Shown here: piece after piece, positions 21,942-32,954 of the stretch
How positions within the stretch are numbered: the stretch's first letter is position 1
Layout: each line of letters begins with the position of its first letter
Assembly: GCA_023336815.1 (NCBI GenBank)
Contig: JAMBLJ010000054.1
Location: 1 to 52,849 of the forward strand
Direction: 5' to 3'
DNA length: 52,849 nt
DNA from: Actinomycetes bacterium
Lineage (GTDB): Bacteria > Actinomycetota > Acidimicrobiia > Spongiisociales > UBA5794
The notes under the pieces: generated by a model
What the model saw: only the letters and a program-made list of their open reading frames with translations
What the model was told of the DNA's origin: nothing
The model's database searches: none
Made by a program: the position numbers and the translations under genes

Positions 21942-23165
21942 CTACTTCCTCACATTCACCGTGCGTTCGATGGCGTTGTAGATGTGTTCGGACATCCTTG
22001 CCTCGTCGGGATCGAGCAGGTTCGCCATCACCTTGAGCGTCCACTCCATCAACGACTGCGAGCGGAGCCCGACGGTGGTGAGTGAACGCATGACCATCGG
22101 GTTTCCGATGGCCTTGACGAACACACGAGCCACGCGGTGGTAGTCCCCATACGCGTCGTCCAGGGCTGTCACGTAATTTGCCAGTGCATCTTCGTTTCCC
22201 GTGGCCGCATCGGCGAGATGGGTCGCAGCCATTCTTCCCGTCTCATAGGCGTAGTCGATGCCCTCTCCGTTGAATGGATTCACGGCACCGGATGCATCAC
22301 CGACAAGCATCCAGTTGCGGCCGACCTTCGGTCCGACGGAGAGCGACATGGGAAGTTTGCCACCGATCGGTTTGGTGTGCGGTGTCACATCCGTGACCTT
22401 CCAGTGGTCAGGGAGAGAGTGGATGTAGGCATCGAGGATGTGCGATGTGTTGACATCCTTCCACCCTTTGAACGTGGAGACGAGCCCGGCTCCGATGTTG
22501 ATCTCACCATCACCGAGGGGAAATACCCAACCGTACCCTGGCATTGCGTTGCCTTCTTTGTCCCTGATATCGAGTTGGCTCTCAATGAACGGGTCCATTG
22601 AAAGCGGACTTGTGTAGTACGCGCGAACTGCGAGACCGTAGGGGTAATCCTTGCGCCGTGATGCGCCAACGCCGCGACCGAATCGTGAATTCGATCCGTC
22701 TGCGATGACGACGAAGTCGGGGTGAACAGTCCGTTCTTCGTCATCCCTGGAAAGTGTCACGCCAACCACTTTGTCGTCCTCGAGAATAGGCATTGCGGTT
22801 GTGCCTTGTTCCACAGTGGCACCCTCGGTCTCTGCTAGACCGGCGACGATCCCGTCGAGATCCGCCCTGCGCATCGTCGCTCCCCAATTGGGATAGATCG
22901 AATGTTCGGGCCATGGCATTTCGATCTTGAGATCTCCTGCATAGGCTCGGAGGCCGTCCACGCGGTGCAGATCGAGGCTGTCGAAGTCGAAGCCCATGTC
23001 GAGCAGCTGTTTGATAGCTCGGGGAGTCAGCCCGTCGCCGCACGCTTTCTCACGTGGGTAGGTCTTCTTCTCCACGAGGTGAACATCAAGGCCATTACGA
23101 GCAAGCCAGTATGCACATGAGGCACCGCCTGGTCCGCCACCGACGACGAGGATATTTGCTGCCAT
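21942..23165 (-). CDS. Geranylgeranyl reductase family flavoprotein (MenJ-like menaquinone reductase)
   Basis: GGGPGG, PREKACGDGLTPRA, GYGWVFP, GDASGAVNPFNGEGI. Confidence 0.85.
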   Translation of the reverse strand: MAANILVVGGGPGGASCAYWLARNGLDVHLVEKKTYPREKACGDGLTPRAIKQLLDMGFDFDSLDLHRVDGLRAYAGDLKIEMPWPEHSIYPNWGATMRRADLDGIVAGLAETEGATVEQGTTAMPILEDDKVVGVTLSRDDEERTVHPDFVVIADGSNSRFGRGVGASRRKDYPYGLAVRAYYTSPLSMDPFIESQLDIRDKEGNAMPGYGWVFPLGDGEINIGAGLVSTFKGWKDVNTSHILDAYIHSLPDHWKVTDVTPHTKPIGGKLPMSLSVGPKVGRNWMLVGDASGAVNPFNGEGIDYAYETGRMAATHLADAATGNEDALANYVTALDDAYGDYHRVARVFVKAIGNPMVMRSLTTVGLRSQSLMEWTLKVMANLLDPDEARMSEHIYNAIERTVNVRK

Positions 23166-23197: not shown

Positions 23198-24817
23198 TCA
23201 GCCTTCGTTCGAAGCTTCGACGAGGCCACAGTCGATCTCGGCGTCAACGAGGTCCTGACCACCGAACTGGACACGTTCATAGAGAGACACAGCGGCGAGT
23301 TGTTCCTCTGAGAGAGATGCCGCGAAACCAGGCATCAATCCGACGCCACCCACGGGTTTCTGGTTCTCTCCATAGGTCGGGTCTGGCCATCCGGCTGTTC
23401 CGATGCCTACCCATTCGATCTGTGTTGCGCATTGACCGGCGGGGAAGGTCTCGAGGACCGCTCCTGCCGTGAACGCTGGGCCTACACCACCTGTACCGTC
23501 AGCATTGTGACACGCAACGCACTGTGCGTAGATGGCACCGCCGGAGGCGAAATAGTCAGCGGTCGTCTCCCCGTACGGGCTCCCGTCACAGTTGACGGCC
23601 TCGCCGGTCGCAGGATCGACGAGAAGTTGTCCGCCCGATCCGCAGTCGGGTCCGTTCGGTGAGACGAGGATGTAACCAACGGCGAGCAGTGGGATGAGGA
23701 GGAACGCTGCGAGAAGCCACTTCGGATACCCGCCCTGTGCCGGTGCAGCCTCGTCGGCTTCATCGCCAGTCGGACCCTGAGCTCTATCCGTCGTGGGTTC
23801 GATCACTTCGACGTCATCCCCGGTGTTCGGGTCCGGTTCTTCATCTGACGGTCCAGACGTATCCTCTGTTGCTGGTTCTGGCGCAGATGGGGGTGCTGTC
23901 GAAACGGCTCCCGGATCCACTCCTGCCCACTCCGCAAGTACGGCTTCGACGGATTCACCCGTCTTCTTAGATCGTGCTTCTGCTGAGCGTTGGGCGAGTG
24001 AGGCTGGCATGCCTTTGACTTCCGCGACCTGTGCGAGCAATTCGTCCATGCTCATCGCTCCAACGGCAACAGCTGCAGCGGCCGCTACTGGAGCGGGTGC
24101 GACGGCATCTGGTTCGACTGGCGGTTCAGTGGCCGCTCCTGGGTCCACTCCTGCCCACTCCGCAAGTACGGCTTCGACGGATTCACCGGTCTTCTTGGAT
24201 CGTGCTTCTGCTGAGCGTTGGGCGAGTGAGGCTGGCATGCCTTTGACTTCCGCGACCTGTGTGAGCAGTTCGTCCATGCTCATCGCACCTACGGCGACGG
24301 CGGCAGCAGCCGCAGTGGCGACGGGGGCGGGTGTGGCCTCCTCCGGCTCGGCTGGTGGCTCGTCCTCCTTCACAACGTCTGGTTCCCCGGATGCAACGGG
24401 TGCTGGAGTCCTTGCTGACACGAGTTCATCGAGATCGATACCCGCCCAATCCGCGAGAACTGAGTCGAGGGTCTCTCCGGCATGGGTGGCTCGAGCCTGT
24501 GCTGACGAGAGGATGAGTTTTGGAGGCATGCGCTTTGCCTCGGATGCGAGTTGGACGAGCTCATCTGTGGTTACACCGGTCGGTACCGACGCAGTGGCGA
24601 GAGCGGGTGTGTCAGGTGTAACCGGTGGTTCGGGTTCAGCTACTGGAGCGGTTGTCACTTCAGGCTTGGACGCCGATGTGGACCCTTCGCCAAGCCATTC
24701 CTGGAGAACCTGTTCGATGGTCGAACCCGTCTTGTCGGCTCTGGCCTGTGCAGATCGCTCGACGAGGGACGCTGGCATCCCTCGCATCTCAGCGACCTGT
24801 TGGAGAAGTTCGTCCAT
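23198..24817 (-). CDS. Membrane-anchored monohaem cytochrome c with four N-terminal ~43-aa repeats
   Basis: Four xDELxxxxxExxxMPxxL...ARxxxxGxxxxxVLxxWxG repeats, one TM, CVACH, MPGF. Confidence 0.85.
   Translation of the reverse strand: MDELLQQVAEMRGMPASLVERSAQARADKTGSTIEQVLQEWLGEGSTSASKPEVTTAPVAEPEPPVTPDTPALATASVPTGVTTDELVQLASEAKRMPPKLILSSAQARATHAGETLDSVLADWAGIDLDELVSARTPAPVASGEPDVVKEDEPPAEPEEATPAPVATAAAAAVAVGAMSMDELLTQVAEVKGMPASLAQRSAEARSKKTGESVEAVLAEWAGVDPGAATEPPVEPDAVAPAPVAAAAAVAVGAMSMDELLAQVAEVKGMPASLAQRSAEARSKKTGESVEAVLAEWAGVDPGAVSTAPPSAPEPATEDTSGPSDEEPDPNTGDDVEVIEPTTDRAQGPTGDEADEAAPAQGGYPKWLLAAFLLIPLLAVGYILVSPNGPDCGSGGQLLVDPATGEAVNCDGSPYGETTADYFASGGAIYAQCVACHNADGTGGVGPAFTAGAVLETFPAGQCATQIEWVGIGTAGWPDPTYGENQKPVGGVGLMPGFAASLSEEQLAAVSLYERVQFGGQDLVDAEIDCGLVEASNEG
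23916..24286. repeat. Intragenic near-identical direct repeat, 143 bp, period 228 bp
   Basis: 23916-24058 versus 24144-24286, few substitutions. Confidence 0.9.
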
Positions 24818-24821
24818 TGCG

Positions 24822-26720
24822 CTACCTCAGCGTCTCGATGTAGGTGACAAGTGCGTCGATATCCGAATCCGATAGGTACGAGTACGACGGCATGGTCGAC
24901 CACGAACGTGCGGCCCTGGGATTGATCAGATGTGGCCCGATCGCATCGACGTTGAAACCCTCACGGGAAGCAAGATGCATCAGGTCCGGTCCGAGACGGT
25001 AGGCGCCGAGTAGCACCGGATTCTCATGGGCATAGTCGCCAGCGAGCGATACCGCGCCGAGACCAACGTCGCTCGCAACGGGTCGCACCTGTTGCGTATG
25101 ACACTCGGCGCAGCCCTCGGAAACGTAGAGGTCGCGACCGATCGATGCTGCAGAACCATCGGCGTACGTTCGCTCGGTGTCAGCCAGCAAGGTCGACTCT
25201 GCGTCCGTGCTGTCGACCATCGGAAGAATGGCCGTGAACATTGCGGCGAAGAGCCACACCGCAACGACACCTCTGGTCAATCGTTTCCACGTTGCATATC
25301 GTTGCTTGCCGGAGAACTCGAGGTCATAGGCGGCGTGTCCGTCCGGGACCGCAAGGTCTTCGTCGTTGCGGCTTCCCACGCGAACGAGGAAGATGATCTG
25401 GGCGACCGTGAAGACCGCAATCGATGCAGCCGTGACCCATAGAAATGGGTACACCGTGTCAGCGGTGACCTTCCAAGCCGGACCCCAGTTCGCGAAGTTC
25501 TGGCTTGTAGGACCAGCGGCCCAGGAAAATCCGACGGCGACTCCACCCATGAGGAGTGCTGCGACAGCACCAGTGAGCCCGGTGAGCGACCACGCGAAGT
25601 GGAAGCTCGACCCGGAGGATGACCCTCCGCTGAGCACTCGATGTCCTGCGAATATCGCAAAGGACACGCCACCCAGTACCACGAGCAACTGCAGCGCCCG
25701 TACCCAGGGGGAGAATTGCACGATGCTGCTCGTCGCTGGCCACGTCAGGAGCAGATTCACGGCAGTCGTGGCGACGAAAGCGAGACCGCCTACGGTCGCG
25801 TAGCGCAAGGATGCCTTGTCGCCGACACTCGCAATGCGACCCTTGAGGAGCAGTCCAAGGTCCGTGACGATCACGAGAGTCGGAACGATCGCTCCGATCG
25901 CAAAGGCAATACCGATACTTTCGAACCAGTTCGGTGCCGGTGAGAAGATCAAACGGGTCGCACTCATGAATGACCACACCAGGATCAGTGACCAGAAACC
26001 CAGGGCCGCCAGTGGGCCAGCTTCGGTTGGGTCGGACCCGCTGATGTGTCCGAATACAAAGTACAACAGTCCGACGGCCGCCGTGATCATGAACAGTGTG
26101 AGTCCTGCACTGCCGAACGCCCCAACAACAGCCCCCGATGTACCTGCTGGTGCGGGCAGGATCGCTGCAAGTGCGGTGAGTGTGAGCAGAATCGGTGCAG
26201 CTGTTAGGTACCAGCCAGCTGTACCAAGTCGATCACGGTTGGACCGTGCGGTCGCTGTGATCGACATCGTGGCGAGCAATGCTCCGATGGCAAGAAGCGC
26301 ACGTGACCATATCGGTGCCTCAAGACCGGTGATCCCGCTGTTGAGACCGAACAGGATGCCGGCGGCGCCGCCTGCGCTCGCGATAACAAGGGCGACGAGG
26401 GAGGCCAGAGCGAGGGCGCTCCTCTCAAGGGGGTTGTTCGTGATCTTTGAAAGGGCGAAATAGCTGACTCCGAGAAGCCCGATGACTGCCCAGCCATACG
26501 TGAGAAGTAGACGACTTGCAGGGGCGATTCGACCGTAGCTCGTAAAGGCGTACGTTGACGCAAGATCCGGAAGTGCGATCTGGAACAGGGCCAGTGACGA
26601 TCCGGCGAGACCGGTGACAAGGAGTATCGCAGCCACGACGAGATGTGTACGCGCTGTCCGTGTGCTTGTCTCTTCCACTTCGGCACTCTGTACGTCGTTG
26701 GGTGAAGTTTCAGCCGTCAC
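24822..26720 (-). CDS. cbb3-type oxidase CcoN-like domain (His ligands absent) fused to a CcoO-like cytochrome c
   Basis: About 12 TM following the CcoN motif order; C-terminal GRDLYVSEGCAECHTQQVRP, RLGPDL, STMPSY; AGGAGG RBS. Confidence 0.8.
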   Translation of the reverse strand: MTAETSPNDVQSAEVEETSTRTARTHLVVAAILLVTGLAGSSLALFQIALPDLASTYAFTSYGRIAPASRLLLTYGWAVIGLLGVSYFALSKITNNPLERSALALASLVALVIASAGGAAGILFGLNSGITGLEAPIWSRALLAIGALLATMSITATARSNRDRLGTAGWYLTAAPILLTLTALAAILPAPAGTSGAVVGAFGSAGLTLFMITAAVGLLYFVFGHISGSDPTEAGPLAALGFWSLILVWSFMSATRLIFSPAPNWFESIGIAFAIGAIVPTLVIVTDLGLLLKGRIASVGDKASLRYATVGGLAFVATTAVNLLLTWPATSSIVQFSPWVRALQLLVVLGGVSFAIFAGHRVLSGGSSSGSSFHFAWSLTGLTGAVAALLMGGVAVGFSWAAGPTSQNFANWGPAWKVTADTVYPFLWVTAASIAVFTVAQIIFLVRVGSRNDEDLAVPDGHAAYDLEFSGKQRYATWKRLTRGVVAVWLFAAMFTAILPMVDSTDAESTLLADTERTYADGSAASIGRDLYVSEGCAECHTQQVRPVASDVGLGAVSLAGDYAHENPVLLGAYRLGPDLMHLASREGFNVDAIGPHLINPRAARSWSTMPSYSYLSDSDIDALVTYIETLR

Positions 26721-26938
26721 GAGCCGGCGTCCTCCTGGTGCGGTTGTCTTCCGTCGTCCTGTGCAGGCGGTGAAACTCTAGCCGCGACGTTGGAGTCAGC
26801 AGTCATCTGCGCTGGAGTTTCTGGCGTGTGCGCGAGAATTGTTGCCGAGATGCCGACAAACTGTCGCGACTCCGACTTGAATAATCGGAGACAACGTACA
26901 CGGCGTACAATGCACGCCCAACATGCAAGGGAAGATTC

Positions 26939-27523
26939 GTGAACGGACGTAGACAGATCATCGCGGGCGTCGCTTTGATCCTGATCGGCCTTGTTGTAAC
27001 CATTGGTGCATCGGTTGTAGTGCACATGGCGGAGGCCCCCGAATTCGACGACCTTGGCCGCGAGCTGTTCGCGGGTGTTCCCAGGGGATGGCAGGTCGCG
27101 ACGCTTGCTCAGATCGTCGCCCTCGGCGGTGTGATCATCTCGCTTGCCGGTGCTACATACGGGTTCTTGTGGCAACAACCTCTGACATGGGCGCGGGCAA
27201 TGCTCGGTGCGCTGCTTTTCGCTTCCCTGATGTTCGTTATCTTTGCGATTGTCCCGAATCAGTTCCTGACGCTGACACAGGCGACGCTGGAATGGACACC
27301 ACAGAAAACGTTCCTTGTGGTCCCTCCCATCGTGGCGTTGAACAACGAGATCTCGCTTTCCTATGCAGCGCTCAAGGACATGATCTCGGCCGGGTATGCG
27401 ACAACGATGCTGATCCTCATTCCGGTCATCATGTACAAGTGGCAGGAGCGTGCGAAAACTCAGGACGCCCCGAAACCAGATCCCGTATCTGACTACGGCA
27501 GACCCCTGCGCGTGGATCGCTGA
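26939..27523 (+). CDS. Hypothetical 4-TM protein, first gene of the bc operon
   Basis: 194 aa, hydrophobic, C-terminal SDYGRPL; coupled to the ferredoxin gene. Confidence 0.75.
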   Translation: MNGRRQIIAGVALILIGLVVTIGASVVVHMAEAPEFDDLGRELFAGVPRGWQVATLAQIVALGGVIISLAGATYGFLWQQPLTWARAMLGALLFASLMFVIFAIVPNQFLTLTQATLEWTPQKTFLVVPPIVALNNEISLSYAALKDMISAGYATTMLILIPVIMYKWQERAKTQDAPKPDPVSDYGRPLRVDR

Positions 27524-27966
27524 TGGCGAAGGAAGTCTGGCTCGAAACGCCACCGATGCGGGATGACTATCAACTCGCGCTCGTGGACACGGAGTACATG
27601 AACGCGGCTGTGAAACCCAAGCAGTTCATCCACATCAATGAATCCGAATGCATTCTGTGTGCCGGATGCGTCGACATCTGCCCCTGGAAATGCATTCAAC
27701 TTCTCTCGCCAGATATCGTCACCGAAGCGATTGGTGTTGACGACCCGAACGACAACGAGGAGAACGGCGCCGTGTTCGTCATCGACGACACCGAGTGCAC
27801 CAGATGCAAGTTGTGCGTCGATCGATGTCCCACCAACGTCATAACCATCGGTAAATTCGGTGGTTCATTGGTAGCCAGTTCTGATGCGTTCGACGCTGCA
27901 CCGTGGGAATACGATTCTGGCACAAGAGATACCAAGAGTGGCGTCGCGTATGGCGTGCGCTGGTAG
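27523..27966 (+). CDS. 2x[4Fe-4S] ferredoxin
   Basis: CILCAGCVDICP and CTRCKLCVDRCP. Confidence 0.9.
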   Translation: MAKEVWLETPPMRDDYQLALVDTEYMNAAVKPKQFIHINESECILCAGCVDICPWKCIQLLSPDIVTEAIGVDDPNDNEENGAVFVIDDTECTRCKLCVDRCPTNVITIGKFGGSLVASSDAFDAAPWEYDSGTRDTKSGVAYGVRW

Positions 27967-27981
27967 GAAGAGGAGAACGAG

Positions 27982-28758
27982 TTGGTAGACGGCAACGGCA
28001 GGACGAGCGTCAAGGACGCTGTCACCGGAATGGGAGACCATGTCCGGAACTCTCAGGTGTGGAACTCGATCTTCCGCCCTGGTTCGCCGATGCGTGCGGA
28101 TGGGGGAGACTCGCCGAGGAACCGTGCCTACGTTGTCATGAACAACGTTCTCTACCACCTGCATCCAGTCAAGGTAAAGCGACATGGCGTCCGCCTGTCC
28201 TACACGCTGTGTCTCGGAGGGCTGAGCTTCTTCCTCTTCATCCTTCTGACGGTCACAGGGATCTTCCTGATGTTCTACTACCGACCGACGTCACCCCAGG
28301 CGTACTTCGATCTTCAGGCTCTTGCAACAGATGTAGCGTTCGGGCAACTCGTTCGCAATATGCACAGGTGGGGCGCACACATCATGGTGCTGACTGTGTT
28401 CCTGCACATGGCTCGTGTGTTCTACCACGGTGCGTACAAGCCACCACGGGAATTCAACTGGGTTGTTGGCATCGTTCTGTTGCTGTTGACGCTTCTGCTG
28501 TCGTTCACCGGCTACCTACTCCCATGGGACCAACTCGCTCTTTGGGCTGTCACTGTTGGTTCGAATATGGCTGCGTATACCCCCGTATTCGGCAACCAGG
28601 TGACGTTCGCGCTCATCGGGGGTATACAGATCACCGCGGACACCCTTCTGCGCTGGTACGTGCTTCACGTGTTGTTCCTCCCGTTCATCATCACCATCTT
28701 TATGGCCGTCCATTTCTGGCGGGTCCGTAAAGATGGCGGCATCTCAGGTCCGCTGTAA
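27982..28758 (+). CDS. Cytochrome b6-type subunit (PetB/QcrB-like) of menaquinol:cytochrome c reductase
   Basis: CLGG, MHRWGAH...[17 protein letters not shown]-x14-H. Confidence 0.92.
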
Positions 28759-28767
28759 GGAGACACC

Positions 28768-29625
28768 GTGGCACAGCTTCCAGATCATCTCCTCAAACGG
28801 GCCGCCGAGGCCAGAGCGAAAGCAGAAGGCCGAACGGTCGACGACGTCATGGCTGAGATGAAGGGCGAACCGGCCGCAGCTTCGCCGTCGCCTGCAGCCG
28901 CCGTGACATCGGGTCCTGGCAGGGATCTCGATGCTGAGGCTGCAACGTACGGTGTTCCCCGACCGCTCCTCGAACGATCGATGTTCGCCCGTGCAAGAAT
29001 GGACGGCACGGCCGTACCCGCAATGGCCGGCGCACCTGCAGCCGCACCTGCAGCCACGGCATCCGCAGCAGCGGCTCCCGCGGCCGCTGCGCCGACAGGT
29101 CCGCCACCGGGTGTGAGAACACAACGTCTCCTCACTGTGGTCAAAGCAGGGGCGATTCAGGGCACCACCAAGGAACCCGCAGACAAGGTCAACGTGTGGC
29201 CGCACCTGCTGGCAATCGAATTCGTGGCGTTGTTGGCTATGTCCGCTTTCCTCTTCTTGCTGTCAGCGCTGATGGATGCACCGCTTCTCGAGTTCGCAAA
29301 CTTCAACGAGCAGCCGAACCCATCCAAGGCGCCGTGGTACTTCCTGGGACTCCAGGAGCTGCTCGCGTACTTCGATCCTCAGGTCGCCGGTGTGATCATT
29401 CCTGGGTTCGGTATTGCCGCACTAGCATTTATCCCGTACATCGATCGAAACCCGTCGGTGCGTCCTTCGAATCGCAAACTTGCGATCTCGTTGTTCACGG
29501 TGTTCTTTATGGGTGCAGCTGTGTTGACGATCTTCGGCTCGTTCTTTCGCGGACCGGGCTTTAACTTCGTATTTCCCTGGACCGATGGGATATTCTTTGA
29601 CGACCTGCTAGCGATTCTCGAATGA
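28768..29625 (+). CDS. Subunit IV (PetD-like) with N-terminal repeat extension
   Basis: VWPHLL, PNPSKAPWYFLGLQE, PYIDRNP, 3 TM. Confidence 0.88.
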   Translation: MAQLPDHLLKRAAEARAKAEGRTVDDVMAEMKGEPAAASPSPAAAVTSGPGRDLDAEAATYGVPRPLLERSMFARARMDGTAVPAMAGAPAAAPAATASAAAAPAAAAPTGPPPGVRTQRLLTVVKAGAIQGTTKEPADKVNVWPHLLAIEFVALLAMSAFLFLLSALMDAPLLEFANFNEQPNPSKAPWYFLGLQELLAYFDPQVAGVIIPGFGIAALAFIPYIDRNPSVRPSNRKLAISLFTVFFMGAAVLTIFGSFFRGPGFNFVFPWTDGIFFDDLLAILE

Positions 29626-29632
29626 GGCACCC

Positions 29633-30493
29633 ATGAGCGCCACTGCAATCTTCGTTCTCATCATCCTCGCAGCTGCTGCCATGGTCGTTGTAGCGATCGT
29701 TGCTGTTGCCAGCAGTCGGTCGGACACCGATGGTGCCGCGACGGCAGGCGAGCTGGATCGCAAGGCTGCCAGGGCCGACAAGGCGCGACGCAAGGCCAAG
29801 ATCGAAGTCGCCGCCGCATCCGGCGGTCCCGGCCGAGAGACGACCGTGATGTTGGTCGATCCCGCTGCGGAGTACGAGACCGCAGTACCGCTCGAGGAGA
29901 TCTCCGCCGTGGAATACGGTGTGACAAGACGCAAGTTCTTCAATCGGGCGATAGGTGCCGTTTTCGGTCTTTTCATGTTGCAGTTCGCCCTTGCCGGATT
30001 GGCGTTTTTCTGGCCGAAGCTCAAAGGCGGTTTCGGGACACCGATCAAAGCTGGCGATGTGAGCACCCTCAAGTCAGAGGTGCTCGTTGCTGGAAAGATC
30101 GTGCCCAAGTTCGTTCCGGCTGCCCAAGCCTGGATCGTTCCCTTCGACATGAGCAACCTGGAGGGTTCGTCCTATGAGGAGGTGCCCTTCGTTGTTGTTG
30201 GTGGCGAATCAGACGGCATCGGTCTTATGGCGCTGTGGCAGCGATGTGTCCATCTTGGATGCCGTGTGCCGTCCTGCGAGTCGTCACAGGGGTTCGAATG
30301 CCCGTGCCATGGTTCGAAGTACAACGGCCATGGCGAATATGCGGCTGGCCCCGCACCGCGGAACCTGGATCGGTTCGGCGTATCGATCGACAGCGCGGGT
30401 GAGCTCGTGATCGACACGGGAACGGTTGTGCAGACAGCACGTGCGAAGGTGTACACAGTTGCGTATCCACAGGGTCCGTTCTGTGTTGGTTGA
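29633..30493 (+). CDS. Rieske iron-sulfur subunit
   Basis: Internal Tat motif TRRKFF, CVHLGC, CPCHGS, GPAPRNL. Confidence 0.93.
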   Translation: MSATAIFVLIILAAAAMVVVAIVAVASSRSDTDGAATAGELDRKAARADKARRKAKIEVAAASGGPGRETTVMLVDPAAEYETAVPLEEISAVEYGVTRRKFFNRAIGAVFGLFMLQFALAGLAFFWPKLKGGFGTPIKAGDVSTLKSEVLVAGKIVPKFVPAAQAWIVPFDMSNLEGSSYEEVPFVVVGGESDGIGLMALWQRCVHLGCRVPSCESSQGFECPCHGSKYNGHGEYAAGPAPRNLDRFGVSIDSAGELVIDTGTVVQTARAKVYTVAYPQGPFCVG

Positions 30494-30517
30494 TGGACTG
30501 AAAAAGGTGATGGGTCA

Positions 30518-32149
30518 GTGATTTCAACAGGTATACATCTAGCGGCACTCGTGCTCGCAACCGGCGAGGACGCCGGAGTGGTGTCGAGCGGTTCAGGGCT
30601 TGGTGTTGGTGCTCTGGCCCTCATGGCCGTGGTCGTTCTTCTCCTCGGTTGGATGGCGTATCTTTACATCAACTCCCGTCGCAGCGCCGCGGCCGCTCAG
30701 GATCCAGCTCCGCCGAACCTGTCTCCCCCTGCCTCGGACGATGAACTCGAGAACCGCAAACTGACACGAGTCCTGCGTGCGGCTCTCTTCGGCAGCGCAT
30801 TGCTTGCTATCGCTCTCCCCTGGTACGCCATCAACGAACCGGATCGTCAAGACACCGCGGCCGAGTCGATCCTCGAAGAAGATGTCGAGGCTGGTGCCCA
30901 CTGGTTCAGTGTCGACGGGTTCGCATGTGCCCAGTGTCACGGTCCTACCGCGGGTGGTGGAGCCGCCCCCTTCACGGAAGCTCGGAGCGGCGTTGATGTC
31001 TCCTGGGCGGTTCCGTCTCTGGACGATGTGCTGTTCCGATACTCCGAAGAAGAAGTGAAGTTCTGGATCGTCTTCGGTCGCGATGGAACCCCGATGCCGG
31101 CCAATGGCCTTGAAGGGGGAGGGGCGATGACGGTCCAGGAGGTCGATCAGACCATCGAGTATCTGAAGTCCATCCAACTCAGTCAGGTTGATGCCTTTGC
31201 TAAGTCAGAGTCGACCGTCGATCTTGCCCTGAAAGCGATCGAAGGCGGAGAAGCTAGGGCACGATCCCTCATCAACCTTCAGCAAGCGGATATCGATGCG
31301 GTGAACGCCGCACCTGACAAGCTCGCGGTGACCGGTTCCTTCGCAGATGATGTCAAGGATCTCCTTCAGGCGCCGGGAACGTGTACAGCTGCATCAGCGA
31401 AGCTCGTGGACACAACGTGCGAAGATCCCGGCGAAGACAGTGATCGGGATGGCCTGACAGATGACGCTGAGAAGGCACTGACAGAAATCGCATCGGTTTC
31501 CATGGAGACTCTCGTTGTTCCCGTCGCATCACAGAACGACGAAGGGATCACCGAATACTCGTTCGAAGCCAATGAGCAGTACGCGTTGAGGTACGACCCC
31601 TTCGTAGCATTCACGAACATCGACCCGGATTCGAGGAACCCCGCACCGGATCTCGACATGGCGGCGGTACTGCTCGAGCACCTCGAGACCGATCTCCTGC
31701 TCGTCGGCGTGACGGCCGATCGTCAGGATCAGTTCCTCGAGGGGTTGAATTCCGGTATGGCCTTTCTCGAGCAGTCTCTCGCTGACCAGCTCTGGAATAT
31801 CGACTACGCGACCGTCGCCACCAACATGGATGTTTCGGAGGCCGATGCACAACGCGGTGTTGGACTCTTCAACTCATATTGTGCGCGGTGTCACACCGGT
31901 GGCTATTCCGCAGGAGCTCCATTCGAACAAGGGGCTGGCACCGGTGCGTGGGGACCGTCACTTCTCGATGGGCGGGCCGAAGGCCAGTTTCCTACCATCG
32001 ATGACCAGGTTGCATTCGTCATGACAGGATCTGACAACGGCGAACGGTACGGCGTCAACGGTCTCGGTACGGGCCGGATGCCCGGATTCGGCCAGGTGCT
32101 GTCCGTCTCAGACATCGAGCTCATCGTGAAGTACGAAAGGACACTCTGA
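30518..32149 (+). CDS. Membrane-anchored dihaem cytochrome c
   Basis: CAQCH...MPA and CARCH...MPGF; N-terminal TMs; start uncertain. Confidence 0.88.
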   Translation: MISTGIHLAALVLATGEDAGVVSSGSGLGVGALALMAVVVLLLGWMAYLYINSRRSAAAAQDPAPPNLSPPASDDELENRKLTRVLRAALFGSALLAIALPWYAINEPDRQDTAAESILEEDVEAGAHWFSVDGFACAQCHGPTAGGGAAPFTEARSGVDVSWAVPSLDDVLFRYSEEEVKFWIVFGRDGTPMPANGLEGGGAMTVQEVDQTIEYLKSIQLSQVDAFAKSESTVDLALKAIEGGEARARSLINLQQADIDAVNAAPDKLAVTGSFADDVKDLLQAPGTCTAASAKLVDTTCEDPGEDSDRDGLTDDAEKALTEIASVSMETLVVPVASQNDEGITEYSFEANEQYALRYDPFVAFTNIDPDSRNPAPDLDMAAVLLEHLETDLLLVGVTADRQDQFLEGLNSGMAFLEQSLADQLWNIDYATVATNMDVSEADAQRGVGLFNSYCARCHTGGYSAGAPFEQGAGTGAWGPSLLDGRAEGQFPTIDDQVAFVMTGSDNGERYGVNGLGTGRMPGFGQVLSVSDIELIVKYERTL

Positions 32150-32670
32150 TGGGGTACCTCCGCACACGCACCCGACGTCTGGGTTCCCAGGAATCCGGAA
32201 TCTCGAAGCTCGAGACTCTTGGTCTGATCGCGTTCATCCTCGCCCTCCTCGCAATGGTCCCCTTTATTCGCAACTGGGTGATCAACGCTATCGGTGTTGT
32301 CTTTGGTCAGGTCGACGAAGATACGGGCGAGATCAACGACTTCTCGACTGCAATGCGTGGTTTCGCCATCGTGGGCGGTGCCGTGATCGTGTTCATCGGC
32401 TCGGGTGCTTTGCTGTTGTGGACGAACCTTGGAAAACGTCTTGCTTTCCTGATCACAGGCGCTGCGACGTTCGGTTGGCTCACGATCAACGGAGTTCTCT
32501 TCGTTGTGTACGCACCCCGAGGAATTCGTCCCACGAACCTCGAGGGACTCAACTCGATTCAGGTGCGCCTTCCCGCTCTCGCCATGACCCTGGGATCGTT
32601 CGTCCTGTTCTTGATGTTCACCCTCGCCCTCGCACGCTACGAATCGGACATGAGCGCCGAAGAGGCGTAG
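32149..32670 (+). CDS. Hypothetical membrane protein, last gene of the bc operon
   Basis: 173 aa, 4 TM, TNLGKRLAFLI; coupled to the upstream stop. Confidence 0.75.
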   Translation: MGYLRTRTRRLGSQESGISKLETLGLIAFILALLAMVPFIRNWVINAIGVVFGQVDEDTGEINDFSTAMRGFAIVGGAVIVFIGSGALLLWTNLGKRLAFLITGAATFGWLTINGVLFVVYAPRGIRPTNLEGLNSIQVRLPALAMTLGSFVLFLMFTLALARYESDMSAEEA

Positions 32671-32690
32671 GCAGGGAAGAAGGGGAAGAG

Positions 32691-32954
32691 GTATTCCGTA
32701 ATACGTATTACGTAGTAGGTACGACGACTCGGACACCAATGCAGGCCGCTTCGCGGATCGCACTATGTCGCGTGTCATACGTGAAATAGGTCCGTCGTAA
32801 GAGACTCGAGGTGGCGGCAGTGCCAGCTGTCCGGCCGTTCGCACTTCGTCATACGTACTACGTAATACGAATCCACCACGAGTGCTCACCTGGCTACACG
32901 CCTCACCAGTCCGAGTTACGTCATTCGTACTACGTCATACGTATTGCGCAATAC
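32691..32954. repeat. Three GTACTAC/GTCATAC heptamer tracts
   Basis: 32691-32725 (5 units), 32841-32868 (4), 32913-32954 (6). Confidence 0.8.

What the first reader, a model, noticed from the sequence alone, without database searches (positions are those of the whole stretch)
24822..26720. Apparently catalytically dead cbb3 oxidase subunit I fused to an intact CcoO cytochrome c
Seen: the membrane part follows the CcoN motif order, but each metal-ligand position is substituted. GRLRPLHT reads GRIAPASR, WYGHNA reads AFGSAG, YIWAGPHHL reads WSFMSATRL (cross-linking Tyr also gone), and WTIGHVH reads WVRALQL. The frame is unbroken, has an AGGAGG RBS, and ends in a complete CcoO domain (CAECH, RLGPDL, MPSY). 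Established: haem-copper oxidases need six His for haem b, haem b3 and CuB. Inference: this is a maintained pseudo-enzyme that cannot reduce O2, reused as a scaffold for an electron-carrying cytochrome c or as a transport/sensing module. The alignment was done by eye against remembered CcoN motifs.
Basis: partly seen in the sequence, partly recalled or inferred. Interest (0 to 1): 0.85.

Follow-up and report, generated by a model that had tools for sequence, protein, structure and literature searches.

The report
Metal-free cbb3 oxidase relic, kept as scaffold
This gene encodes a cbb3-type oxidase core that has lost every histidine needed to hold its haems and copper but is still carefully conserved, fused to an intact cytochrome c and always encoded beside a Rieske/cytochrome b6 complex, so it probably relays electrons or holds partners together and does not reduce oxygen.

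Summary
The gene lies on the minus strand (24822-26720, 632 aa). It has a CcoN fold (Foldseek TM 0.84 to 3MK7 chain A) fused to a CcoO domain with CxxCH and MPSY.

All six metal-ligand histidines are replaced (S69, A205, T255, R256, L343, L345). The cross-link Tyr is W249. Three independent alignments agree.

The loss is not local decay:
- 108 of 113 alignable close homologues have 0 of 6 His, and 5 have 1.
- The state extends to split CcoN/CcoO orthologues and to a 1-Mb-genome lineage.
- dN/dS of the membrane domain is 0.09-0.18.

The gene is strictly syntenic. It is followed by a membrane-anchored monohaem cytochrome c and diverges from a ferredoxin / cytochrome b6 / subunit IV / Rieske / dihaem c operon. 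A complex model places the monohaem cytochrome's helix on TM7-8 (ipSAE 0.74; best control 0.01).

An independent ligand-poor CcoN+CcoO+cytochrome c triad sits between ACIII and aa3 genes in Verrucomicrobiota.

Best reading: a cofactor-free platform for a c-haem relay between quinol oxidation and aa3 oxidase. This role is inferred, not shown. I found no published description. Current annotation calls these proteins cbb3 oxidases.

The parts
24822..26720 (-). pCcoNO: fused ligand-free CcoN-like domain + CcoO cytochrome c, 632 aa, GTG start (stop codon 24822-24824)
   Evidence: ORF list and translation; Pfam COX1 + FixO; 120 listed homologues at 48-100% identity
26731..26736 (-). AGGAGG ribosome-binding site, 10 nt before the GTG
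   Evidence: sequence read
25380..26720 (-). CcoN-like membrane domain, residues 1-447, 12 predicted helices
   Evidence: AF2 secondary structure; Foldseek to 3mk7_A TM 0.84; profile hit E 2.2e-26
26514..26516 (-). codon S69, at the site of the TM2 His ligand (low-spin haem b; cofactor assignment recalled)
   Evidence: G/A/S in 113 of 113 alignable homologues
26106..26108 (-). codon A205, at the site of the TM6 His ligand (CuB; assignment recalled)
25953..25958 (-). codons T255-R256, at the site of the TM7 His-His pair (CuB; assignment recalled)
25686..25694 (-). codons L343-Q344-L345; L343 and L345 at the sites of the two TM10 His ligands (haem b3 and haem b; assignment recalled)
24825..25289 (-). 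CcoO part, residues 478-632: one TM anchor (478-502) and a monohaem cytochrome c domain
   Evidence: Pfam FixO; phmmer to 3mk7_B E 6e-16 with the MPSY motif aligned; helix 478-502
25098..25112 (-). haem c attachment motif C537-A-E-C-H541
   Evidence: translation; C537, C540, H541 invariant in 35 sequences; CxxCH in 119 of 120 homologues
23198..24817 (-). cytc539: four cytoplasmic repeat motifs, one TM helix, one C-terminal haem c domain; starts 4 nt after the pCcoNO stop; predicted partner
   Evidence: translation; CxxCH at 433 and TM 365-389; present in 32 of 36 loci, the other 4 end at the gene; complex model ipSAE 0.74 vs best control 0.01
21942..23165 (-). geranylgeranyl-reductase family gene (MenJ-like), co-oriented downstream neighbour; probably a separate function
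   Evidence: Pfam; NCBIfam TIGR02032 226 bits above its cut-off, MenJ 286.6 bits below its cut-off of 700; syntenic
26939..27523 (+). orf194: conserved 4-TM protein of no known family, first gene of the divergent operon
   Evidence: no Pfam or NCBIfam hit; 4 hydrophobic segments; found in 32 of 36 loci, the other 4 lack upstream sequence
27523..27966 (+). 2x[4Fe-4S] ferredoxin-type subunit
   Evidence: Pfam Fer4 families
27982..28758 (+). cytochrome b6-type cytochrome b
   Evidence: Pfam Cytochrome_B E 7.6e-48; NCBIfam ExtP 304.3 bits, cut-off 290
28768..29625 (+). subunit IV (PetD-like) with an N-terminal extension carrying the same repeat motif as cytc539
   Evidence: Pfam Cytochrom_B_C; BLASTP of the N-termini E 1e-07
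29633..30493 (+). Rieske [2Fe-2S] subunit
   Evidence: Pfam Rieske
30518..32149 (+). membrane-anchored dihaem cytochrome c (CxxCH at 137 and 455); C-terminal domain weakly CcoP-like
   Evidence: Pfam; motif count; TIGR00782 E 6e-07, far below its cut-off
32149..32670 (+). orf173: conserved 4-TM protein of no known family, last gene of the operon
   Evidence: no family hit; syntenic

Best explanation
pCcoNO is a pseudo-enzyme derived from a fused cbb3-type (C-family) oxidase. Its 12-helix CcoN domain binds no haem b, haem b3 or CuB and cannot reduce O2. It is kept as a membrane platform. The platform holds its own CcoO haem c on the outer face and docks the transmembrane helix and linker of the next gene's monohaem cytochrome c (cytc539).

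The resulting haem-c-only 'CcoN-O-P-like' module is a lineage-specific accessory of the Acidimicrobiia ferredoxin / cytochrome b6 / subunit IV / Rieske / dihaem-c complex. It most likely acts as a membrane-bound electron relay, and possibly a physical bridge, from that complex to the CuA-type aa3 oxidases of the same genome.

Shown: fold, ligand loss, purifying selection, synteny and phyletic pattern.
Modelled: the pCcoNO-cytc539 contact.
Inferred: absence of b haems and Cu, the direction of electron flow, and any supercomplex.
For: Fold and ligand loss are.

The loss is family-wide. Of the 120 listed homologues, 113 are alignable at all six sites. 108 of these have 0 His and 5 have 1, always at site 256. 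The residues at those sites vary freely (G/A/S at 69; 12 different residues at 256), so no alternative ligand is conserved.

Across 68 diverse His-less representatives, the columns conserved at 80% or more are mostly Gly/Pro/Trp/Phe plus R64, Y220 and T337. These are also conserved in 6-His CcoN. This is fold maintenance without a new polar site.

dN/dS of the membrane domain is 0.086-0.177 in 10 pairs, the same range as the CcoO domain.

Synteny: 32 of 36 loci show orf194 (and the b6c genes where the contig reaches), and 32 of 36 show cytc539. All the exceptions are contig ends. Nine further genomes keep the cluster, with CcoN and CcoO split in six of them, and all nine have 0 of 6 His.

The CcoN-like and CcoO parts are present or missing together. 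Five genomes of other families have neither, while cytc539-like and the b6c operon remain.

A 1.0-Mb genome keeps a CcoN-like gene with a single His in 469 residues, next to CcoO-like and cytc539-like genes.

Complex model: ipSAE 0.74 (three runs 0.73-0.76), best of 3 controls 0.01, at least 87% contact agreement between runs, partner pLDDT at least 81. That mark was reached by 58 of 80 solved complexes and 2 of 110 mismatched pairs; these counts hold only roughly because my own alignments were used. The interface comprises TM7-8 residues 236-290 and the invariant CcoO loop 545-557. That loop had pLDDT below 50 in the monomer model.

cytc539 and subunit IV of the b6c operon share a cytoplasmic repeat motif.

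The only COX2 found in the genome lies in a 265-aa frame without CxxCH, so it needs an external cytochrome c donor.

Independent parallel: in a Verrucomicrobiales locus a CcoN-like gene with 1 of 6 His, a CcoO and a cytochrome c lie between ACIII genes and an A-type COX1/COX3.
Against: No experiment and no expression data were available. Haem b and Cu absence is inferred from sequence.

The cytochrome b6 is found in 271 of 301 sampled class genomes, but the CcoN-like profile only in 66 (E<=1e-20) to 75 (E<=1e-6). The b6c complex therefore works without the module in most of the class. The module cannot be an obligatory subunit or the only exit route.

The b6c operon already encodes its own dihaem cytochrome c, and cytc539-like proteins exist without pCcoNO. 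A relay is therefore conceivable without the platform.

The complex model may pass partly through likeness to solved cbb3 structures with CcoP. It says nothing on the position of the partner's haem domain, because only partner residues 8-62 are in the confident interface.

I could not inspect model coordinates, so whether the former haem pockets are filled is unknown.

The aa3 genes are not linked to this cluster in the window's genome.
Confidence: 0.55

Rival explanations
1. The membrane domain has taken on a transport or energy-coupling role of its own, for example a proton or ion path gated by the redox state of the attached c haem, or a small-molecule channel. The CcoO haem then serves as the driver or sensor and not as a relay.
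For: Twelve helices are kept under dN/dS of about 0.1-0.18, which is strong for a mere anchor. E267 and D287 on TM8 are invariant in the 19-sequence N-domain alignment. D287 replaces an Asn that is invariant in 6-His CcoN. H374 is kept in 119 of 120 homologues.
Against: Across the wider His-less clade, D287 drops to 44% and H374 is not kept. No clade-wide polar network was found. Nearly all clade-wide conserved columns are structural residues shared with true CcoN. The position aligned to the Glu of the ...STFEGP... segment of 3mk7_A is hydrophobic in the profile.
Confidence: 0.13
2. It is a purely structural or assembly factor for the b6c complex or for cytc539 (a stabiliser or chaperone-like subunit), and its CcoO haem takes no part in the main electron path.
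For: Strict synteny with the b6c operon. Predicted tight binding of the cytc539 helix. The module is dispensable in most of the class.
Against: The haem c motif and the MPSY Met are among the best-conserved parts: CxxCH in 119 of 120 homologues, and C537, C540, H541 and M610 are invariant. That would not be expected of a redox-silent stabiliser. CcoO is co-inherited with the CcoN-like part.
Confidence: 0.12
3. It is still a redox enzyme that binds haem or metal through non-His ligands, or at a new site, and reduces O2, NO or another acceptor.
For: The HCO superfamily has repeatedly changed active-site chemistry. Passages of Murali et al. 2024 (PMC11214002) report gNOR with one His replaced by Asp, and low-spin haems with His/Met or His/Lys ligation.
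Against: All six sites are lost at once, and the replacing residues vary among close relatives. No conserved Met, Cys, Lys or second His is available in the membrane domain. One orthologue has a single His in 469 residues. No CcoS/FixS or FixH assembly gene was found in the 94%-complete genome.
Confidence: 0.05
4. It is a decaying relic with no function: a pseudogene that happens to remain open.
For: All catalytic ligands are gone.
Against: The frame is open in every one of 28 full-length loci translated. dN/dS is 0.09-0.18. The gene is conserved at 25-70% identity across families and is retained in a 1.0-Mb genome.
Confidence: 0.02

Closest known systems
Fused CcoNO (bifunctional subunit I/II) cbb3 oxidases of Bacteroidota and relatives (NCBIfam PRK14485)
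   Same: Same architecture: a 12-TM CcoN, a cytoplasmic linker, the CcoO TM anchor and a monohaem c domain. Alignable end to end at 22-26% identity. Best NCBIfam hit.
   Different: Those proteins keep all six His (13 of 14). The window scores 119.8 bits against a cut-off of 1080 and has none of the six.
Pseudomonas stutzeri cbb3 oxidase, CcoN and CcoO (PDB 3MK7 chains A and B)
   Same: Closest solved fold: TM 0.84, rmsd 2.8 A. Profile E 2.2e-26 to chain A. The CcoO domain matches chain B at E 6e-16 with CxxCH and MPSY aligned.
   Different: 16% identity, no metal ligands, no cross-link Tyr. CcoN and CcoO are separate chains there. The partner here is a monohaem cytochrome, not a dihaem CcoP.
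gNOR, and qNOR, of the HCO superfamily (Murali et al. 2024, PMC11214002; passages read)
   Same: Both are examples of HCO members that changed or lost cofactor sites. gNOR replaced one active-site His. qNOR is a subunit I/II fusion whose cytochrome c part lost its haem motif.
   Different: [quoted passage not shown] Here all three CuB His and all three haem His are gone. It is the mirror image of qNOR: the catalytic domain is emptied and the cytochrome c is kept.
Ligand-poor CcoN-like family of Verrucomicrobiota
   Same: A CcoN fold family with at most 1 of 6 His: 120 of 120 sequences, 104 with one and 16 with none. In locus L080 it is followed by CcoO and a cytochrome c and placed next to a quinol:cytochrome c oxidoreductase. 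It is annotated as cbb3 subunit I.
   Different: It is a separate clade in the tree. The partner complex is ACIII, not b6c. The replacing residues are fixed (A, S, R, R, W) instead of variable. It is not fused to CcoO.
Membrane-anchored cytochrome c relays (cytochrome cy of Rhodobacter; the dihaem QcrC of actinobacterial bcc-aa3 supercomplexes) - recalled, not tested here
   Same: This is the job proposed here: carrying electrons from a Rieske/cytochrome b complex to a terminal oxidase without a soluble cytochrome c.
   Different: Those relays are simple anchored cytochromes. None uses an emptied oxidase subunit as its anchor.

Membership tests
CcoN, catalytic subunit of C-family (cbb3) haem-copper oxidases | 12-helix COX1/CcoN fold | tested here: met
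   Pfam COX1 59.5 bits, cut-off 34.8; Foldseek 3mk7_A TM 0.84; profile E 2.2e-26
CcoN, catalytic subunit of C-family (cbb3) haem-copper oxidases | Two His axial ligands of low-spin haem b (TM2 and TM10; cofactor assignment recalled from the 3MK7 literature) | tested here: not met
   S69 and L345 at these columns; no His at either site in 113 of 113 alignable homologues
CcoN, catalytic subunit of C-family (cbb3) haem-copper oxidases | His ligand of high-spin haem b3 (TM10; assignment recalled) | tested here: not met
   L343
CcoN, catalytic subunit of C-family (cbb3) haem-copper oxidases | Three His ligands of CuB (TM6, and a His-His pair in TM7; assignment recalled) | tested here: not met
   A205, T255, R256; only 5 of 113 homologues have a His, at site 256 alone
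CcoN, catalytic subunit of C-family (cbb3) haem-copper oxidases | Active-site Tyr that cross-links to a CuB His | tested here: not met
   W249 opposite the Tyr of VYIW in 3mk7_A; W in 99, G in 18 of 120 homologues
CcoN, catalytic subunit of C-family (cbb3) haem-copper oxidases | Curated NCBIfam score cut-offs (TIGR00780 ccoN; PRK14485 fused I/II) | tested here: not met
   24.8 bits vs 583.15; 119.8 bits vs 1080
CcoO / FixO monohaem subunit II | Pfam FixO gathering score | tested here: met
   76.7 bits vs 29.6
CcoO / FixO monohaem subunit II | CxxCH haem attachment and distal Met (MPSY), with an N-terminal TM anchor | tested here: met
   C537-H541 and M610 invariant, aligned to 3mk7_B; helix 478-502
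CcoO / FixO monohaem subunit II | NCBIfam equivalog cut-off TIGR00781 | tested here: not met
   72.6 bits vs 200.65
Complete cbb3 oxidase system (ccoNOQP with ccoGHIS) | Dihaem CcoP subunit encoded with CcoN and CcoO | tested here: not met
   The downstream cytochrome has one CxxCH and no TIGR00782 hit. Only the dihaem c of the divergent operon hits it weakly (E 6e-07, 29 bits vs 179.95).
Complete cbb3 oxidase system (ccoNOQP with ccoGHIS) | Assembly genes CcoS/FixS and CcoH/FixH in the genome | tested here: inconclusive
   No match for PF03597 or PF05751 in the window's genome. That genome is 94% complete in 299 contigs, so absence is not proven.

The most novel reading that the evidence does not exclude
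Emptied cbb3 oxidases form a recurrent, undescribed class of respiratory adaptor. The cofactor-free CcoN, with CcoO and a third cytochrome c, is the physical bridge of a supercomplex joining the quinol-oxidising complex to an aa3 oxidase. That complex is the ferredoxin-b6c in Acidimicrobiia and ACIII in Verrucomicrobiota. The adaptor is a fossil of an ancestral complex III-cbb3 supercomplex, whose oxidase lost its metals after aa3 took over O2 reduction. In the boldest form, the empty 12-helix core still moves protons in response to the redox state of its c haem.
Probability: 0.25. Interest if true: 0.9.

Novelty: new variant of a known kind. Interest (0 to 1): 0.75.

Why it matters
First, it extends the known range of the haem-copper oxidase superfamily. 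A passage read in the 2024 survey of that superfamily (PMC11214002) describes the active-site histidines as completely conserved in all families except gNOR. Here a large family under purifying selection has none of the six ligands. Among the 131 of the 150 best cluster representatives alignable at all six sites, 84 have 0 of 6 His.

Second, databases name these proteins 'cbb3-type cytochrome c oxidase subunit I/II'. Genome-based studies read such annotations as high-affinity, microaerobic respiration. One example is the attribution of cbb3 oxidases to MAGs in PMC8357290 (passages read); I did not check whether those genes belong to this family. For Acidimicrobiia and Opitutales-type Verrucomicrobiota that inference is probably wrong.

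Third, the family offers a natural case of how a respiratory enzyme is turned into a pseudo-enzyme scaffold. It also makes a concrete question testable: how is electron transfer from Rieske/b6 or ACIII complexes to aa3 oxidases wired?

Tried and rejected
RNA evidence: one search for sequencing runs listed no holder on record as RNA. No reads were laid, so nothing can be said on expression.

Earlier notes of this scan: nothing to show.

The 278-aa minus-strand ORF 26717-27553, which overlaps the start of pCcoNO, was considered as an upstream operon gene and rejected. It has no family hit and an Arg/His-rich, non-protein-like translation. It lies opposite the conserved plus-strand orf194.

The 328-aa minus-strand ORF 31903-32889 was likewise treated as a shadow of orf173. 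Its identity across loci is lower, 38-54% against 62-82%.

The open-frame extension had a frame error for some loci. Its output was not used, and the match regions were translated directly. In-frame stops in some distant tblastn regions were written as X for that alignment.

The listing of cluster members gave no taxonomy for ten representatives.

Pfam at E up to 10 found no family for the cytoplasmic repeat, orf194 or orf173.

Literature searches found no description of a His-less CcoN or of this gene cluster. The library lacks most subscription journals, and supplements were closed. The supplementary trees and alignments of PMC11214002 might include such sequences.

I could not inspect model coordinates. 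Whether the former haem pockets are filled was therefore not tested.
Full report
WHAT IS THERE.
The finding's coordinates hold one ORF on the minus strand, 24822..26720 (632 aa, GTG start). AGGAGG lies 10 nt upstream of the start.

Pfam finds COX1 over residues 23-413 (E 3.5e-16) and FixO over 524-624 (E 2.4e-21). The best NCBIfam hit is the fused subunit I/II model PRK14485, at 119.8 bits against a cut-off of 1080. ccoN TIGR00780 reaches 24.8 bits against 583. The protein is therefore a relative of the fused CcoNO oxidases, but a very aberrant one.

LIGAND LOSS.
Three independent alignments agree.

(i) A MAFFT alignment of the window protein with 13 close, 3 intermediate and 14 distant loci from public genomes. 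13 of the 14 distant sequences, mostly Bacteroidota fused CcoNO, have His in six columns. The window has S69, A205, T255, R256, L343 and L345 there. None of the 13 close or 3 intermediate sequences has His in any of the six.

(ii) A profile of 19 N-domains (alignment A2) hits 3mk7_A at E 2.2e-26. The printed alignment puts the same residues opposite the His of the RPLHT, YGHNA, GPHHL and IGHVH motifs, and W249 opposite the Tyr of VYIW. Which His binds which cofactor is recalled from the 3MK7 literature; I did not read it here.

(iii) An AlphaFold2 model built on 35 sequences (pLDDT 84.3, pTM 0.90; 12 helices, then a linker, one more helix and a cytochrome c domain) matches 3mk7_A best. Foldseek gives E 5.6e-13, TM 0.84 normalised to the target, and rmsd 2.8 A over 453 columns. 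Other cbb3 CcoN chains, NorB and the A/B-type subunits I follow.

The CcoO part aligns to 3mk7_B at E 6e-16 with CxxCH and MPSY in register.

NOT LOCAL DECAY.
A search of 5.8 billion proteins gave 135 hits. The best 120 are listed, at 48-100% identity, and those with a name are mostly from Acidimicrobiia or Actinomycetota MAGs.
- Of these 120, 113 have residues at all six sites. 108 have no His and 5 have one, always at site 256. Seven are fragments.
- The replacing residues vary: G/A/S at site 69, and twelve different residues at 256.
- CxxCH is present in 119 of 120, and H374, which is not a ligand site, in 119 of 120.
- All 28 full-length loci translated have open frames.
- Nei-Gojobori dN/dS for ten pairs is 0.086-0.177 in the membrane domain and 0.078-0.157 in the CcoO part. 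Five pairs have dS below 0.7, so those values are not saturated.

The membrane domain is thus under purifying selection about as strong as that on the cytochrome domain.

HOW LARGE THE FAMILY IS.
The A2 profile, searched against 1.84 billion cluster representatives, found 1568 proteins at E<=1e-3. The best 150 were examined.
- Of the 131 with residues at all six sites, 84 have 0 His, 17 have 1, 6 have 2, 1 has 4, 2 have 5 and 21 have 6.
- True 6-His CcoN first appear at about 184 bits, below many His-less proteins.

A FastTree of 117 sequences was built from the window plus 116 representatives with at least 380 aligned positions; 34 shorter representatives were left out. It was midpoint-rooted, which is rough.
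- It shows a His-less clade of 68 leaves (65 with 0 and 3 with 1 His; support 0.79).
- Inside that clade sits a sub-clade of 33 leaves, nearly all fused, that includes the window (support 0.955).
- A second, separate ligand-poor clade is also present.

Across the 68 leaves, the columns conserved at 80% or more are almost all Gly/Pro/Trp/Phe plus R64, Y220 and T337. These are also conserved in 6-His CcoN, and no clade-wide new polar cluster appears. This is what a maintained fold without a new active site looks like.

GENOMIC CONTEXT.
The next gene starts 4 nt after the stop. This is cytc539 (23198-24817). It has four copies of a roughly 30-residue cytoplasmic motif, one TM helix and one C-terminal haem c domain. 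A MenJ-like geranylgeranyl reductase follows.

Diverging from pCcoNO is an operon with these genes:
- orf194 (4 TM, no family);
- a 2x[4Fe-4S] ferredoxin;
- cytochrome b6 (NCBIfam ExtP 304 bits, cut-off 290);
- subunit IV;
- Rieske;
- a membrane-anchored dihaem cytochrome c;
- orf173 (4 TM, no family).

In 36 related loci, orf194 is found in 32 and cytc539 in 32. The other four in each case end at the gene.

Nine further genomes of the class keep the arrangement.
- In six of them (families f2 and f4) the CcoN-like gene (about 480-530 aa) and CcoO are separate.
- Two are fused.
- In one the two parts lie about 7 kb apart.
- All nine have 0 of 6 His.

The N-terminal extension of subunit IV carries the same repeat as cytc539 (BLASTP E 1e-07 for the single comparison). 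This ties the two divergent operons together.

PHYLETIC PATTERN.
In 301 sampled genomes of the class:
- the cytochrome b6 is found in 271 (E<=1e-60; 74% identity or more in the matches listed);
- the CcoN-like profile is found in 66 at E<=1e-20 and in 75 at E<=1e-6.

The CcoN-like matches are concentrated in the window's own order: f1 13/16, f2 33/35, f3 6/9, and f4 6/7 to 7/7. These tallies include the unpublished genome G254, and for b6 also G212. Without them the counts are 65/300, 74/300 and 269/299.

The counts are a lower bound. In the 1-Mb-genome family f12 only 8 of 65 pass, at E near 1e-7. In the one f12 locus that I read (L102), there is a 469-aa CcoN-like ORF with a single His (local hmmsearch E 7.9e-11). 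It still shows the FW...PDW motifs, and CcoO-like and cytc539-like genes follow it.

In five genomes of other families only the cytc539-like gene sits opposite orf194. No CcoN-like or CcoO-like gene was found there by tblastn or by the profile.

Three things follow:
- the CcoN-like and CcoO parts come and go together;
- the b6c complex and cytc539 exist without them;
- the module is retained even in a very small genome.

THE REST OF THE GENOME.
The genome (94% complete, 299 contigs) holds:
- two A-type COX1 genes (E 1e-142 and 3e-132);
- one COX2 hit, in a 265-aa frame without CxxCH;
- three cytochrome b loci, including an actinobacterial QcrB-like one;
- no match to FixS/CcoS or FixH.

No genome in the class survey listed a second full-length CcoN-like match.

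PARTNER PREDICTION.
I modelled pCcoNO (35-row alignment) with the C-terminal 184 residues of cytc539 (25-row alignment, 52-83% identity to the window's copy).
- ipSAE was 0.74 (three runs, 0.73-0.76) against 0.01 for the best of three controls.
- Contact agreement between runs was at least 87%, and partner pLDDT was at least 81.
- That mark was reached by 58 of 80 solved complexes and 2 of 110 mismatched pairs. These counts hold only roughly because my own alignments were used.

The partner's TM helix lies on residues 236-290 (TM7-8). Its conserved post-helix segment lies on the invariant CcoO loop 545-557, which had pLDDT below 50 in the monomer model.

The model supports binding but does not show it. 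It may owe something to solved cbb3 structures. It does not place the partner's haem domain.

AN INDEPENDENT PARALLEL.
The second ligand-poor clade belongs to Verrucomicrobiota. Homologues of representative P0204 include proteins of Opitutus sp. GAS368, Oleiharenicola lentus and Lacunisphaera, named 'cbb3-type cytochrome c oxidase subunit I'.
- All 120 listed have at most 1 of 6 His: 104 have one, at the 205 site, and 16 have none.
- The other five sites carry fixed replacements, A, S, R, R and W.

In Verrucomicrobiales locus L080, a 37%-identical relative with 1 of 6 His is followed by CcoO and a cytochrome c. It lies between ACIII genes (NrfD/ActC, ActD, a cytochrome c) and a cupredoxin gene, an A-type COX1 (E 1.6e-130) and COX3.

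Passages of PMC6688271 report that, in verrucomicrobial methanotrophs, the ACIII genes are co-located with genes for a cbb3-type oxidase, the only complex IV type in its comparison table. The ligand-poor triad of L080 therefore occupies the place of a working cbb3 next to the quinol-oxidising complex, now with an aa3 oxidase beside it.

MECHANISM.
The best-supported reading has four steps.
- The emptied CcoN is a membrane platform (shown: fold, selection, co-inheritance with CcoO).
- It carries the CcoO haem c and docks cytc539 (modelled).
- The haem-c-only triad relays electrons from the ferredoxin-b6c complex towards the CuA-type aa3 oxidases, perhaps within a supercomplex (inferred).
- It descends from an ancestral 'complex III-cbb3' arrangement (inferred from context and the verrucomicrobial parallel).

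Against this reading: the module is dispensable in most of the class, the operon has its own dihaem cytochrome c, and there are no expression or biochemical data. I put it at 0.55. The rivals are an ion or proton path in the membrane domain (0.13), a redox-silent stabiliser (0.12), unconventional cofactor binding (0.05) and neutral decay (0.02).

COMPARISON AND NOVELTY.
The protein works, at most, like an anchored cytochrome c relay. By membership it is a CcoO and a CcoN-fold protein, but it fails every catalytic criterion of CcoN.

[quoted passage not shown] Nine full-text searches found no description of a His-less CcoN or of this cluster. Subscription journals and supplements were not covered.

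I rate it a new variant of a known kind. It has practical weight because databases and MAG studies read these genes as cbb3 oxidases.

Noticed in passing
window 28768-29100 (+) and 23768-24817 (-); L102 12206-13042: A roughly 30-residue cytoplasmic motif (P..L..RSA.ARA...G.S.E.VL.EW) occurs twice at the N-terminus of subunit IV and four times in cytc539 (BLASTP E 1e-07). In the 1-Mb-genome locus L102 it also heads the CcoO-like protein. No Pfam family matches it. It may be a shared docking module, perhaps for the ferredoxin subunit.
   Followed up: partly
L080 865-13542; proteins P0204, P0281-P0399: Verrucomicrobiota have their own CcoN-like family with at most 1 of 6 His (120 of 120) and fixed replacements A/S/R/R/W. 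In L080 it is encoded with CcoO and a cytochrome c between ACIII genes and an aa3 oxidase. Named isolates carry it.
   Followed up: partly
window 26939-32670 (+): The ferredoxin / b6 / subunit IV / Rieske / dihaem c operon, flanked by two unknown 4-TM genes, is near-universal in the class (b6 in 271 of 301 genomes at 74% identity or more). Its b6 passes the cut-off of the NCBIfam 'ExtP selenite/tellurite reduction operon' model. The role of the ferredoxin subunit is open.
   Followed up: partly
G000 contigs C284 and C134 (L085, L086): The genome has two more Rieske/cytochrome b loci. One is QcrB-like (567-aa frame) with a Rieske and a cytochrome c. The other is a 425-aa cytochrome b with a small Rieske and a monohaem c. 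That makes three such complexes in a 3-Mb genome.
   Followed up: no
L102 10843-13042: In the small-genome lineage the CcoN-like ORF has one His in 469 residues. The CcoO-like protein reads HPNY where others have MPSY, which suggests a different distal haem ligand.
   Followed up: no
window 26721-26790 (-) and homologues P0004, P0006, P0009 etc.: Several database homologues are annotated with about 24-30 extra N-terminal residues ending '...HQEDA.S'. This is the translated, conserved ribosome-binding region (caccaggaggac). The conserved protein starts at V/MTAE(T/I)S.
   Followed up: partly
L029 2314-6001; L095 and L096: In a few loci 3.7-4.4 kb of other DNA separate the CcoN-like gene from the divergent operon. 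In L096 the CcoO-like gene lies about 7 kb from the CcoN-like gene. The content of these stretches was not examined.
   Followed up: no
window 21942-23165 (-): A MenJ-like geranylgeranyl reductase (78-87% identical across close loci) stays next to cytc539 even where the CcoN-like gene is missing. It may saturate the menaquinone side chain.
   Followed up: no
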